This document shows, in pieces, positions 163 to 45,223 of a stretch of DNA of 64,000 nucleotides. The position numbers were made by a program, and so were the translations under genes. Numbering within the stretch: position 1 is the stretch's first letter; the number at the start of each line of letters is the position of its first letter. Under the pieces are notes generated by a model that saw only the letters and a program-made list of their open reading frames with translations, made no database searches and was not told where the DNA came from. The stretch is from the human T2T-CHM13v2.0 reference genome, Homo sapiens: assembly GCF_009914755.1 (NCBI RefSeq), contig NC_060927.1; one strand, written 5' to 3'.

Positions 163-782
163 TGGATCCCTGGATATCTTTTTTTTTTTTAAGGTTCAAT
201 CACACTTTATTCATTTATGTTTTTAAGTTTTTTAGGTCATACATTTCCTCAATTCTTCATACATTTTATTTCAGTCAATTAAATTACAAAACAATACAAG
301 CTTTTTAAATTCAAAGTCTAAAGTATATAAAGTAATAATGATTCCCTCTCTTTCTCTTACCCTTCAACTTCACCTTGCTAATGTAACAAACTTAATAATT
401 TAATGTGTATCTTTTTTTATTTTCTACTAGTTTATTCTTTGATTAGAATCCAATAAGATCCAAAAAAAAGAAAGAACCCAATAAGATCCATACATGGCAG
501 TTGGCCAAGTTTTTTTTTAATCTATTGGTTTCTCCTCCATCTCTCTTCTTTTTCTTTCTTTTTTTTAAATTTTATTATTAGTATACTTTAAGTTTTAGGG
601 TACATGTGCACAACGTGGGAATTGAACAATGAGAACACATGGACACAGGAAGGGGAACATCACACACCGGGGACTATTGTGGAGTGTGGGGAGCGGGGAG
701 GGATAGCATTAAGAGATATACCTAATGCTAAATGACGAGTTAATGGGTGCAGCACACCAACATGGATCCCTGGATATCTTTT
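163..782 (-). mobile_element. Severely 5'-truncated L1PA (about L1PA3-5) insertion with 5' inversion and 3' transduction
   Basis: Direct repeat TGGATCCCTGGATATCTTTT at 163-182 and 763-782; poly(T) to 190; non-L1 segment 191-~545; T-rich tail and L1 3' end on the minus strand ~546-617; inverted L1 3'UTR piece on the plus strand 615-765. Confidence 0.9.
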
Positions 783-900
783 ACCCTTATTTTGGTTGCA
801 AATCTGTGAAGAAGCCTTGGAATTAAGAATGGGCATAGTCCACAAAATCATTCTTTAAATTTCTCCTTAGACAAAATTAGAATATAAAGTGCATGCATCT

Positions 901-1205
901 GGTTAGGTGCAGTGATTAACGCCTGTAATCTCAGCACTTGGGAGGCCAAGTCAGGTGGATCACTTGATGTCAGGAGTTTGAGACCACCTGGCCAACATGG
1001 TGAAACTCTGTCTCTGCAAAAATACAAAAATTTACCTGGCATGGTGGTGCGTGCCTGTAATGCCAGCTACTCAGGAGGCTGAGGCAGGAGAATCTCTTGA
1101 ATCTGGGAGGCGGAGGTTGCAATGAGCTAAGATGGCATCACTGCACTCTAGCCTGGGTGACGGAGCGAGACTCCATCTCAAAAATAATAATAACAAAAGT
1201 AAAAA
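901..1205 (+). mobile_element. AluS-type SINE
   Basis: Full dimeric Alu with A-rich tail; TSD AAAGT(G/A)CATGCATCT at 886-900 and 1206-1220. Confidence 0.93.
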
Positions 1206-2630
1206 AAAGTACATGCATCTAATATAAATATGGAAAGTATTTTAAATAATAAAAAATGAAGACATATTTGATACAGAATGAGTTTGATTTTCTCTATTAT
1301 ATTCATATTCAGAACTATAGCGTGTGTTTTTATTTTTTCATGGCTCTTTTGTCAGTATGTACCTTAAAACCCCAAATTATTACTTCCTACTTTCTACTTC
1401 TAAATATTTATGAATGAAGAAAACAATTAAAAATGTTTAAATGGTCAAATAATAACTAAACATTCTATTGGTAAAATGCAGTTACACATTAATCATTGTG
1501 AACATATAAATGCAATCTCAATGTTAGTTTGGTTTCTTGAGCAGAATGAAGAAGGTAGAAGAAAGTGAAGATTTTAGTCCATTTCTTAGAGAGCTAAACT
1601 TTATCTTATAAATTACCCATGGAGAAATAGATTCTCCATGGGTCATTTCACTATTTTTAAACTTCTTCATGTATAATTTTTTTTTTACAATAACTTGCCT
1701 AAAACCTTTATTCTTAAATGTAAATCTTTCAAAACAATTTATTCTTGGTAAGATGGTACATATCTAAATCCAAATATTTGTCCAGGGCCCCTTCATAGAT
1801 ATTGAGTTGCTCTTTGATGAATTCTCAACTCTCTGGAATCAGAACTTTATTATAAACGAAGTAGTCATAACGATCTACATTGTGAGTCTCTTTTAATCTG
1901 AACAAATATAGGACTCTCAAGTACAACTGGCACACCCTGGGATTGTCCTTTGAAATTTTGGTCAATGAAATGCTAGGTCTTGTAAAAGAAAGATTGACAT
2001 AGAGAACATTTCTAGAGGGAAGGTTTTTATGATGGATGCATAATTTTAACACTGGAAAATCTGAATTATTAAAGGGAAAACTTCCATCTTCCCTATTCAT
2101 GTTGCATCTTTAACAAAAAGAAAATTAGAGCTACGTCAAAGACAGAATAATTATGTTGCATTCACCCTCTTAAATATAAACGTATGTCTAAATCTCTATA
2201 GAAACTATGGTGGTCATAATCTTAGAAACATGGTTTGTCTCATGGTATATGAAGTTAACAGAGAGCATTTAGAGCTGTTACCAGTGTGTCAATTGTAATG
2301 TTATGACTAAAATGTTAGAATAAAATATAACAAAAACAATGCAGTGCATCCTGTATATATGGAATGCCATTTTTTGAGGTCTACAGTTTTCTGTAAACTA
2401 TTTTCGTATAAGGTGTGAATATATTTTTAATTTTAGTATAAGTAATAAGCTACAATAATAAATACAAGACATTTAAAAACAGGCAAAGGAATATTTCATA
2501 CTGGACATTGTAGAACTCCAGGTTGCATTTATATAATTTCAAATGAATGATAAAGTATTCAGAAATATGTATTTTATAACCATAGGCTAGCATTTCATAA
2601 GCTTTAAAAAATAATTTTTTTTCTCAACAG

Positions 2631-33750
<31,120 letters not shown>

Positions 33751-45082: not shown

Positions 45083-45223
45083 TGATTATTATGCTGGGAA
45101 CGTAGTAGGTTCCTGAGATGTATATAAGGTGATTATTATGCTGGGAACGTAGTAGGTTCTTGAGATGTATATAAGGTGATTATTATGCTGGGAACGTAGT
45201 AGGTTCTTGAGATGTATATAAGG
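45083..45223. repeat. 47-bp tandem repeat, 3 copies
   Basis: TGATTATTATGCTGGGAACGTAGTAGGTTC(C/T)TGAGATGTATATAAGG at 45083, 45130 and 45177. Confidence 0.97.

What the first reader, a model, noticed from the sequence alone, without database searches (positions are those of the whole stretch)
163..782. L1-mediated 3' transduction: ~360 bp of DNA from another locus placed in a CNTN6 intron
Seen: a 20-bp direct repeat (163-182 and 763-782) ending in TTTT|A, an L1 endonuclease-type site, brackets 580 bp. On the minus strand the insert reads L1 3' end, first A-rich tail (~546-566), ~355 bp of non-L1 sequence, AATAAA (206-211), then a second poly(A) 15 nt later (ending at 190). Established: two poly(A) tails inside one TSD pair is the signature of read-through from a source L1. 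Inference: 191-545 is copied from the 3' flank of a formerly active L1PA and tags that source element. A repeat masker would probably call only the ~220-bp L1 part and miss the true insertion.
Basis: partly seen in the sequence, partly recalled or inferred. Interest (0 to 1): 0.8.

Follow-up and report, generated by a model that had tools for sequence, protein, structure and literature searches.

The report
Two-step L1 transduction fossil in CNTN6
An old, dead L1 jumping-gene insertion in a CNTN6 intron carries two short pieces of DNA picked up from chromosomes 2 and 3, most likely in two successive jumps, which makes it a tidy but ordinary example of a known process.

Summary
The 20-nt direct repeat (163-182 / 763-782) is exact, ends at a TTTT|A site and is not a chance match. 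It brackets one L1-mediated insertion, 183-762.

- The L1 part is two pieces in opposite orientation (567-617 antisense, 615-762 sense). 27 nt are missing at the joint, and 3-nt microhomologies sit at both joints. This is twin priming.
- The "first A tail" is only 8 A (559-566). Positions 546-557 belong to the cargo.
- The 355-nt cargo comes from two loci. SegA (419-557) matches chr2:105.86 Mb. SegB (191-416) matches chr3:64.33 Mb.

Each piece ends 12-15 nt after its own AATAAA and starts at an A-run in its donor. The two pieces are equally diverged from their donors (5.7% and 5.5%).

No L1 lies within 10 kb of either donor, and no sibling copies were found.

Best reading (about 0.55): a two-generation ("serial") 3' transduction, chr2 to chr3 to CNTN6, from two source L1s that were never fixed. 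The event is roughly 15-38 My old. Main rival (about 0.27): a tripartite chimera made by reverse-transcriptase template switching.

Serial cascades and "parentless" transductions are both already in print, so this is a new member of a known kind. No function is suggested.

The parts
163..182 (.). Left copy of the 20-nt target-site duplication. It ends in TTTT, the first-strand nick site (TTTT|A).
   Evidence: Exact 20/20 repeat. 0 of 200 shuffles gave any such repeat.
183..190 (-). Terminal poly(A) of the inserted RNA (T8 on the + strand, continuous with the TTTT of the TSD).
   Evidence: Not templated at the chr3 donor, where homology stops at L002 1500.
191..416 (-). SegB, the outer cargo. 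It is copied from G000:C3:64,326,834-64,327,068 (minus-strand sense).
   Evidence: 13 substitutions in 235 ungapped columns (5.5%) against L002 1500-1737. It is the only such match in the genome. In the donor it starts at T|AAAAA.
206..211 (-). AATAAA of segB, 15 nt before the terminal poly(A).
   Evidence: The donor has the same hexamer, followed by U/GU-rich sequence after the cleavage point.
417..418 (-). Two A residues templated by neither donor. They would be the remnant of the poly(A) added to segA.
   Evidence: Comparison of the two junction alignments. The assignment is ambiguous by 1-2 nt.
419..557 (-). SegA, the inner cargo. It is copied from G000:C2:105,862,154-105,862,301 (plus-strand sense).
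   Evidence: 8 substitutions in 141 ungapped columns (5.7%) against L003 1489-1636. No other copy was found in the genome.
431..436 (-). AATAAA of segA, 12 nt before the end of chr2 homology.
   Evidence: The donor continues with CA and then a U-rich stretch.
558..566 (-). A-tail of the L1 (A8, plus one G at 558 that matches neither L1 nor the donor).
   Evidence: Chr2 homology ends at 557 and L1 homology starts at 567.
567..617 (-). L1 3' terminal piece, the last ~50 nt of the element including its own AATAAA. It is in the same sense as the cargo.
   Evidence: Aligns to the 3' end of the window's L1, 23853-23910. That L1 is verified by Pfam Transposase_22, Exo_endo_phos and RVT_1.
615..762 (+). 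Inverted L1 piece (twin priming). It overlaps the 3' piece by 3 nt (GTG, 615-617) and shares TGG (763-765) with the right TSD.
   Evidence: Aligns in the opposite orientation to window L1 23675-23825, and 23826-23852 is absent. It is 96-97% identical to 39 other genomic L1 copies.
763..782 (.). Right copy of the 20-nt target-site duplication.

Best explanation
This is a fossil of a two-generation (serial) L1 3' transduction that ended in a twin-primed, dead-on-arrival insertion.

Inferred history:
1. A full-length L1 once sat on chr2, directly upstream of what is now C2:105,862,154. Its transcript ran through the weak L1 poly(A) signal and was cleaved 12-14 nt after the next AATAAA. That gave the RNA L1-A(n)-segA-A(n).
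2. This RNA inserted full-length on chr3 at a T|AAAAA site (C3: about 64,327,063, minus strand).
3. The daughter element was transcribed through both earlier signals. The transduced segA signal had left its downstream U-rich element behind on chr2. Cleavage came 15 nt after an AATAAA 226 nt further on, giving L1-A-segA-A-segB-A(n).
4. That RNA was reverse transcribed at a TTTT|A nick in a CNTN6 intron. The first primer copied the tail, segB, segA, A8 and 51 nt of L1. A second primer, the other end of the staggered break, annealed by TGG about 30 nt upstream on the same RNA and copied about 150 nt in the opposite direction. Joining at a GTG microhomology gave the inverted, truncated L1 between 20-nt TSDs.

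Both source elements were polymorphic and were never fixed, so today's chr2 and chr3 loci are the empty alleles. The insertion is antisense to CNTN6, and nothing suggests a function.

Shown: the anatomy, the two donors, the poly(A)-site and A-run coincidences, and the equal ages.
Inferred: the two lost source L1s and the order of events.
For: - One exact 20-nt TSD pair at a TTTT|A site encloses everything.
- L1 3' end, A8, segA, segB and the terminal A-run are colinear and in one orientation.
- Each cargo piece ends at a canonical poly(A) site of its donor: AATAAA plus 12-15 nt, with U-rich sequence downstream in the donor only. The background frequency of a position lying 10-30 nt after AATAAA is 0.023-0.026 in 19,900 positions around each donor. 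A single RNA cannot be cleaved twice, so two rounds of polyadenylation are recorded.
- Each piece begins at an A-run in its donor (background 0.033 per position at each donor). The chr3 junction is a canonical T|AAAAA endonuclease site (background 0.003).
- SegA and segB are equally diverged from their donors: 8/141 = 5.7% and 13/235 = 5.5% (Fisher p = 1.0). The L1 piece is 3-4% from its best genomic relatives. That fits about 2.8% per lineage, so all parts appear to be the same age.
- The cargo is unique sequence, not an abundant RNA. Rfam gave no family, only 1 match at E = 0.76 and below the gathering score. The chr3 donor lies about 120 kb on the 5' side of the PET-domain exons on the same strand, so it is not at that gene's 3' end. 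Physical linkage to an L1 explains why such obscure sequence was retrocopied at all.
- The segA/segB junction is explained with no mutation as segA up to ...T, then 2 A, then the donor's AAAAA. A direct join at the shared GAAAA would need 2 changes within 6 nt.
- Precedents: a 'multigenerational L1 transduction cascade' that retains the first tag and adds a second (PMC13009371, section 10 read whole). Only 3 of 27 mappable canine transductions lay next to a reference L1, and the rest are called 'parentless' (PMC13141329, passages). About 20% of new germline L1 insertions carry 3' transductions (PMC6425141, passages).
Against: - No L1 lies within 10 kb on either side of either donor in this complete assembly. 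Two separate source elements must therefore both have been lost.
- No sibling insertion carrying segA or segB was found anywhere in the genome, so the supposed sources left no other surviving offspring.
- The internal A-tracts are very short: 8 A after the L1, and at most 2 untemplated A after segA. A young intermediate would be expected to have had tens of A. A-runs are labile here, though: the T-run inside segA is 18 nt in the donor and about 8-11 nt in the copy.
- The chr2 junction (C|AAAG) is only a loose endonuclease site.
- The chr2 donor lies about 1.4 kb downstream of a 1.2-kb CpG island (68% GC, CpG o/e 0.72) whose GC skew switches sign. The chr3 donor is sense-oriented upstream of gene exons. 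Natural polyadenylated transcripts ending at these sites are therefore conceivable, which helps the template-switch rival.
- No outgroup genome could be examined.
Confidence: 0.55

Rival explanations
1. Tripartite chimeric retrocopy made by two template switches of the L1 reverse transcriptase in a single integration event. Reverse transcription began on the poly(A) tail of a cellular RNA from chr3 (segB). After 226 nt the T-rich cDNA end re-annealed to the tail of a second cellular RNA from chr2 (segA). After 139 nt it re-annealed to the tail of the L1 RNA, which was also twin-primed.
For: - Both switch points are T-rich cDNA ends that could pair with a poly(A) tail.
- The junction A-tracts are very short (8 and at most 2), and the two donors share GAAAA at the segA/segB joint.
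- Both donor pieces end at real poly(A) sites. They lie where natural transcripts are conceivable: 1.4 kb downstream of a CpG island with a skew switch, and sense-oriented upstream of gene exons.
- No source L1 and no siblings exist.
- Single and double template switches by LINE RT are described, including two human tripartite elements that lacked recognisable TSDs (PMC2104539, abstract and Background read).
Against: - It does not fit the published features of these chimeras. [quoted passage not shown] Here the L1 is the 5'-most part and is truncated and inverted, and the 3' parts are obscure unique sequences.
- The enzyme would have to start in trans on a rare RNA, move to a second rare RNA, and only then reach its own L1 RNA. 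That runs against cis-preference.
- No small-RNA family is present.
- A join at the GAAAA microhomology needs 2 changes in 6 nt, whereas the poly(A)/TSD reading needs none.
- My prior (my own estimate from general knowledge of how rare such chimeras are; I found no counts in the papers read): transductions accompany about 20% of insertions, while chimeras are very rare and tripartite ones are counted in single figures.
Confidence: 0.27
2. Three independent, nested retro-insertions. A twin-primed L1 inserted first and made the 20-nt TSD. A 5'-truncated retrocopy of the chr2 RNA then landed in its A-tail. A retrocopy of the chr3 RNA then landed in that copy's A-tail. Each later event made TSDs of pure A that cannot be seen.
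For: - A-tails offer T-rich priming sites for the L1 endonuclease (general knowledge, recalled).
- Every part ends in an A-run, and the outer TSD would be unaffected by later internal insertions.
Against: - SegA and segB show the same divergence from their donors (5.7% and 5.5%). The L1 piece is of matching age. Three events would therefore have to fall close together in time.
- Two separate retrocopies of obscure, unique, non-mRNA-like sequences would both have to hit the same few bases.
- Random 5' truncation does not predict that both pieces start at A-runs (0.033 per position at each donor).
Confidence: 0.08
3. Single-step transduction from one lost source locus where segA and segB already lay side by side because of an earlier DNA rearrangement. 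Alternatively, templated DNA-repair patches with no RNA intermediate.
For: The contiguous segA-segB arrangement is found nowhere else in the genome, so a lost composite locus cannot be excluded.
Against: - SegA ends exactly at an AATAAA plus 12 nt site, and segB starts exactly at a T|AAAAA site. A DNA rearrangement or repair patch predicts neither.
- Both pieces have poly(A)-site 3' ends, which points to RNA.
Confidence: 0.05

Closest known systems
L1 3' transduction (read-through of the weak L1 poly(A) signal into 3' flanking DNA)
   Same: One TSD pair, an endonuclease-type target, L1 3' end followed by an A-tract, then unique non-L1 sequence in the same orientation ending in AATAAA plus poly(A). 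The cargo maps uniquely elsewhere. Two poly(A) tails are described as typical of partnered transductions (PMC13009371, passage).
   Different: The cargo is bipartite and comes from two chromosomes. Neither donor has an adjacent L1 in this genome.
Multigenerational (serial) L1 transduction cascade, described for L1HS in colorectal cancer (PMC13009371, section 10)
   Same: A daughter insertion retains the first 3' tag and adds a second tag from the intermediate locus. This is the L1-tag1-tag2 order seen here.
   Different: In the published case the reference source and the germline intermediate are both observed. Here the event is about 15-38 My old, it is germline and fixed, and both source and intermediate are absent and only inferred.
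'Parentless' 3' transductions (PMC13141329)
   Same: The donor sequence maps to a locus without an adjacent LINE-1, because the parent was dimorphic. This was the case for 24 of 27 in the canine comparison.
   Different: Those are recent dimorphic insertions in dogs. This is an old insertion in a human genome, and two parents are missing, not one.
Twin priming / 5' inversion of L1 insertions (name and model recalled. PMC2912911 lists 5'-inverted copies as a class; I saw only its abstract in a search listing)
   Same: Two L1 pieces in opposite orientation, a small internal loss (27 nt) at the inversion joint, and 3-nt microhomologies at the joint and at the TSD.
   Different: Nothing unusual. 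The only notable point is that the first primer traversed 375 nt of cargo before reaching L1, so just 51 nt of L1 remain in the original sense.
Chimeric retrogenes formed by LINE RT template switching, bipartite and tripartite (PMC2104539)
   Same: Several RNA-derived parts joined directly in one orientation inside one pair of direct repeats.
   Different: The published features are not met: 5' part a full-length cellular RNA, 3' part usually a 5'-truncated LINE. Here the LINE is the 5'-most part and is truncated.

Membership tests
L1-mediated (TPRT) insertion | Target-site duplication of about 7-20 nt flanking the whole insert | tested here: met
   20/20 exact repeat at 163-182 and 763-782. 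0 of 200 shuffles gave any such repeat.
L1-mediated (TPRT) insertion | Endonuclease-type nick site (TTTT|A) at the poly(A) end | tested here: met
   The reconstructed empty site reads ...TCTTTT|ACCC (182|783).
L1-mediated (TPRT) insertion | Terminal poly(A) not templated at the donor | tested here: met
   T8 at 183-190 on the + strand. The donor L002 has no such run at that point.
L1 3' transduction | Complete L1 3' end and A-tract followed by non-L1 unique sequence in the same orientation, inside the TSDs | tested here: met
   L1 3' piece 567-617, A8 559-566, cargo 191-557. The cargo has one donor for each piece in the genome.
L1 3' transduction | Cargo ends at a downstream poly(A) signal of the donor locus | tested here: met
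   AATAAA plus 15 nt for segB and AATAAA plus 12 nt for segA, each present in its donor with U-rich sequence downstream. Background 0.023-0.026.
L1 3' transduction | Donor sequence lies directly 3' of a (full-length) source L1 | tested here: not met
   No L1 hit within 10 kb on either side of either donor. The Alu control probe hit 3 of the 4 flanks. The literature shows this feature often fails because sources are polymorphic, so it lowers the claim but does not abolish it.
L1 3' transduction | Orthologous empty site in outgroup species | not testable with these tools
   No primate genomes are held. The own genome 'has no relatives here'.
Serial (multigenerational) transduction | Two cargo segments in tandem from two loci, the inner one ending at its own poly(A) site and the outer one starting at an endonuclease-type site of its donor | tested here: met
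   SegA ends at AATAAA plus 12 nt. SegB starts at T|AAAAA in L002 (background 0.003).
Serial (multigenerational) transduction | A recognisable poly(A) tract between the two tags | tested here: inconclusive
   Only 0-2 untemplated A, within a 7-A run of which 5 are templated by the chr3 donor.
Serial (multigenerational) transduction | Intermediate element observed at the second donor locus | tested here: not met
   No L1 at or near C3:64.327 Mb.
Twin priming (5' inversion) | Two L1 segments in opposite orientation, the inverted one from upstream L1 sequence, with a small deletion or duplication and microhomology at the joints | tested here: met
   567-617 (-) equals window L1 23853-23910. 615-762 (+) equals 23675-23825. 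27 nt are lost. GTG overlaps at 615-617, and TGG is shared with the TSD.
Template-switch chimeric retrogene (features as listed in PMC2104539) | 5' part is a full-length copy of a cellular RNA | tested here: not met
   The 5'-most part is about 200 nt of a truncated, inverted L1. Feature list read.
Template-switch chimeric retrogene (features as listed in PMC2104539) | 3' part is a 5'-truncated copy, mostly of a LINE | tested here: not met
   The 3' part is unique chr3 sequence, not a LINE. 'Mostly' leaves room for exceptions.
Template-switch chimeric retrogene (features as listed in PMC2104539) | Parts directly joined in the same orientation and flanked by short direct repeats | tested here: met

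The most novel reading that the evidence does not exclude
The element is not a transduction but a tripartite chimera. It would have been made by two successive template switches of L1 reverse transcriptase during one integration: from a prematurely polyadenylated intronic RNA (chr3), to a promoter-proximal polyadenylated RNA next to a CpG island (chr2), to the L1 RNA itself. It would then be a human tripartite chimera with an unambiguous 20-nt TSD. According to PMC2104539, the two human tripartite cases known in 2007 lacked recognisable direct repeats. It would also show the enzyme starting in trans and ending on its own RNA.
Probability: 0.27. Interest if true: 0.5.

Novelty: new member of a known kind. 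Interest (0 to 1): 0.3.

Why it matters
If the serial reading is right, this 600-bp insert records the movements of one L1 lineage over three generations around the time apes and Old World monkeys split. It would pinpoint to the base two source loci on chr2 and chr3 that no longer hold an L1.

It is also a practical caution for annotation:
- A repeat masker sees only about 200 nt of L1 in two orientations.
- A simple "map the cargo to one locus" test for transduction fails, because the cargo is composite and both parents are missing.

The finding does not change any concept. Serial cascades, parentless transductions and twin priming are all in print. The insert is antisense in a CNTN6 intron, about 1.9 kb from the nearest listed exon, with no sign of function.

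Tried and rejected
- Source L1 at the donors: I probed 10 kb on each side of both donors with the window's own L1 and found nothing. The Alu control worked.
- Sibling insertions: I searched the genome with the cargo and with extended donor sequence.
  - Apart from self and window, one search gave 7 weak hits (69-74% identity) to old repeats outside segA, plus one 33-nt 97% hit (C1:9,244,442) over a T-run.
  - One search scored 40 of 170 candidates. All 38 others were 72-88% hits outside segB.
  - The tool skips very common words, so 'none found' is not proof of absence.
- Splicing as the origin of the segA/segB joint was rejected. The pieces are on different chromosomes, and no GT follows segA in the chr2 donor.
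- Small-RNA partner: Rfam gave 1 match at E = 0.76, below the gathering score.
- Gene context of the chr2 donor:
  - Pfam found no family in 11 of 11 long open frames scanned, 9 of them in the GC-rich stretch.
  - The Vps39_1 landmark lies about 120 kb away, so the CpG island's gene was not identified.
  - No donor-like MAG|GTRAG motif was found after the island.
- A bacterial promoter/terminator scan is irrelevant to a human intron and is disregarded.
- The L1 subfamily was not assigned, because no repeat library is held. I can say only that the piece is 96-97% identical to its 39 best-scored relatives out of 1,523 candidates.
- Literature:
  - The phrase 'serial transduction' occurred in none of the 15 listed papers.
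  - One search returned only gene-therapy noise.
  - Szak et al. 2003 (PMC156586) is not held.
  - PMC9311842 gave 0 hits for my terms.
  - Passages of PMC13192797 and PMC4866827 were read but not used.
  - For 10.1101/2025.02.02.635956 I saw only the abstract and outline. It concerns sequences 5' of LINE-1.
  - I did not search for this specific CNTN6 insertion in print.

Full report
**1. The observation.**
The + strand carries TGGATCCCTGGATATCTTTT at 163-182 and again, without a mismatch, at 763-782. In 200 block shuffles of the whole 64-kb window, no exact 20-mer direct repeat within 1 kb arose. At local composition this word has P about 1.3e-12 per place. Of the first 40 of the 84 repeated 20-mers listed for the real window, every one other than this belongs to a tandem or simple-repeat tract.

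Removing 183-782 leaves ...TCTTTT|ACCC, which is an L1 endonuclease-type nick site. On the minus strand AATAAA is at 206-211, and the A-run (190-183) starts 15 nt after it.

**2. The L1 part is twin-primed.**
For comparison I used the large repeat at about 18.0-23.9 kb of the same window. Pfam finds L1 ORF1 domains (Transposase_22, 2.6e-63), Exo_endo_phos and RVT_1 (7.9e-47) in its open frames, so it is an L1.

- Window 567-617 aligns to the last bases of that L1 (23853-23910) in antisense.
- Window 615-765 aligns to 23675-23825 in sense.
- The two pieces are therefore head-to-head. L1 positions 23826-23852 (27 nt) are missing.
- The pieces overlap by GTG (615-617). The inverted piece shares TGG (763-765) with the right TSD.

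This is the anatomy expected of twin priming (model recalled). The second primer is the 3' end left by the second-strand nick at the left edge of the TSD. It anneals to the L1 RNA by 3 nt.

**3. The cargo is two pieces from two chromosomes.**
A search of the window's own 3.1-Gb genome with 191-545 gave three places among three candidates: itself, C3:64,326,834-64,327,068 and C2:105,862,166-301.

| Piece | Window | Donor | Substitutions |
|---|---|---|---|
| segB | 190-424 | L002 1500-1737 | 13 in 235 ungapped columns (5.5%) |
| segA | 416-557 | L003 1489-1636, opposite strand | 8 in 141 (5.7%) |

These figures come from base-level alignment.

The nine bases 416-424 fit both donors. The reading that needs no mutation is:
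- segA through the T at 419;
- two untemplated A (418-417);
- then the chr3 donor's AAAAA (416-412).

The untemplated tail behind the L1 is only A8 (566-559), plus one unexplained G (558).

In RNA sense (minus strand) the insert reads:
TSD | inverted L1 | L1 3' end | A8 | segA | AA | segB | A8 | TSD.

**4. Properties of the donors.**
Both donor pieces are unique sequence. Extended donor queries found only self and the window at high identity. All other hits were 69-88% matches to old repeats outside the copied parts, apart from one 33-nt hit over a T-run.

In each donor the copied piece stops at a complete poly(A) site.
- chr2: AATAAA, 12 nt, then CA and a U-rich stretch.
- chr3: AATAAA, 15 nt, then U/GU-rich sequence.

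In 19,900 background positions around each donor, only 2.3-2.6% lie 10-30 nt after an AATAAA.

Each piece begins at an A-run in its donor (3.3% of background positions). On chr3 the start is T|AAAAA, the complement of TTTTT|A (0.3% of positions). On chr2 it is C|AAAGAAAAA, a looser site.

Neither donor has an L1 beside it. The L1 probe found nothing in 10 kb on either side of either donor, while the Alu control scored in 3 of the 4 flanks.

Context of the donors:
- PET-domain exons lie at C3:64,203,597-64,206,743 on the minus strand. By recall this is PRICKLE2. They place the chr3 donor about 120 kb on their 5' side, in the same sense, so it is not at that gene's 3' end.
- The chr2 donor lies about 1.4 kb downstream of a 1.2-kb CpG island (68% GC, CpG o/e 0.72, 100 CpG) whose GC skew changes sign in the middle.
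- The gene belonging to the island was not identified.

**5. Age.**
The two pieces do not differ in divergence (Fisher p = 1.0). Pooled, 21/376 = 5.6% (Poisson interval 3.5-8.5%).

At an assumed 1.0-1.2e-9 substitutions per site per year on each of two lineages, this gives about 24-29 My, with an interval of roughly 15-45 My. The rate is my assumption from general knowledge.

The inverted L1 piece is 96-97% identical to the 39 best-scored of 1,523 candidate L1 copies. That fits about 3% change on one lineage. An unmutated 20-nt TSD has P about 0.32 at this divergence. All parts therefore look equally old.

**6. Mechanism.**
SegA ends at a cleavage and polyadenylation site inside the insert, and one RNA cannot be cleaved twice. 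Two rounds of 3'-end formation are therefore recorded. Three routes can give that.

*(a) Serial 3' transduction (about 0.55).*
An L1 on chr2 reads through to the segA site. Its full-length daughter lands at the T|AAAAA site on chr3. The daughter reads through to the segB site, and that RNA inserts in CNTN6 by twin priming.

This explains:
- the colinear order of the parts;
- the poly(A)-site 3' ends and the endonuclease-like 5' ends;
- the equal ages;
- why obscure unique sequences were retrocopied at all.

It also predicts that the transduced segA signal, having lost its downstream element, would be bypassed in the next round. That last point is inference.

It has precedents:
- a published 'multigenerational L1 transduction cascade' that keeps the first tag and adds a second (PMC13009371, section 10);
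- 3' transductions in about 20% of new germline insertions (PMC6425141);
- donors without an adjacent LINE-1 in 24 of 27 mappable canine cases, termed 'parentless' (PMC13141329).

Its weaknesses:
- two lost sources are required;
- no siblings were found;
- the internal A-tracts are very short (8 and at most 2).

A-run length has changed by 7-10 nt elsewhere in this same element since copying. The T-run in segA is 18 nt in the donor and 8-11 nt in the copy.

*(b) Double template switching in a single event (about 0.27).*
The T-rich cDNA ends, the short junction A-runs, the GAAAA shared by both donors at the joint, the CpG-island and intragenic contexts and the absent sources all fit this model. 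Double switches are described (PMC2104539).

Against it:
- The element fails that paper's own list of features. There, the 5' part is a full-length cellular RNA and the 3' part is usually a 5'-truncated LINE.
- The enzyme would have to start in trans on a rare RNA and end on its own RNA.
- A join at GAAAA needs two changes in six bases.
- No small-RNA family is present.

*(c) Three nested insertions into A-tails (about 0.08).*
The equal divergences argue against this, as does the improbability of two obscure retrocopies hitting the same few bases.

*(d) Other DNA-level origins (about 0.05).*
These do not predict the poly(A)-site and nick-site coincidences.

**7. Comparison and verdict.**
The element works like an L1 3' transduction. 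It meets every structural criterion that could be tested, with one exception. The defining genealogical criterion, an L1 directly upstream of the donor, was tested and is not met in this genome. The outgroup criterion could not be tested.

I therefore file it as a probable two-generation, parentless 3' transduction with a twin-primed L1, not as a proven one.

It is L1-mediated mobilisation of foreign DNA, but from two loci and not one, and no present-day element is tagged as the source.

This is a new member of a known kind. It is of modest interest to people who trace old L1 lineages or build transduction callers, and it has no apparent consequence for CNTN6. The insert is antisense to the gene and lies about 1.9 kb upstream of the nearest listed exon (2631-2806 in the hub table).

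Noticed in passing
window 445-490; donor L003 about 1557-1607: Inside segA, an A-run is flanked by a 17-18-nt direct repeat (AGAATCCAATAAGATCC[A]). The run is 18 nt in the chr2 donor and 8-11 nt in the copy. It looks like a poly(A)-only, extremely truncated retro-insertion with its own TSD, or else a small duplication. It predates the copying, because donor and copy both have it.
   Followed up: partly
window 881-1220: An Alu-like element (about 905-1213, masked 915-1213) is flanked by a 15-20-nt direct repeat ending in GCATGCATCT (881-900 and 1201-1220, 85% identical). This is an ordinary Alu with its TSD, about 100 nt from the L1 insert.
   Followed up: no
L005 7150-8350 (= G000:C2:105,859,549-105,860,749): A 1.2-kb CpG island (68% GC, CpG o/e 0.72, 100 CpG). 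Its GC skew switches from about -0.3 to +0.15 in the middle, as at a bidirectional promoter. It ends 1.4 kb upstream of the chr2 donor piece. None of the 9 open frames from this stretch that were scanned has a Pfam family.
   Followed up: partly
window about 18045-23917: A near full-length L1 on the + strand with an 18-nt A-tail. ORF1 domains (18774-19646), endonuclease (20057-20995) and RT (21244-23742) lie in separate stop-to-stop frames, so its reading frames are broken. It differs by 11% from the L1 piece of the finding over 151 nt.
   Followed up: partly
window 3447-3495 and 45083-45160: Exact direct repeats at short spacing: a repeat of at least 26 nt spaced 22 nt apart at 3447/3469 (intron between the listed exons 3170-3287 and 3936-4094), and a repeat of at least 30 nt spaced 47 nt apart at 45083/45130. 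They are probably small tandem duplications.
   Followed up: no
G000:C1:9,244,442-9,244,474: A 33-nt, 97% match to the part of the chr2 donor that holds the T-run and one copy of the 17-nt repeat. It is too short to be a sibling insertion and is probably chance or low complexity.
   Followed up: no
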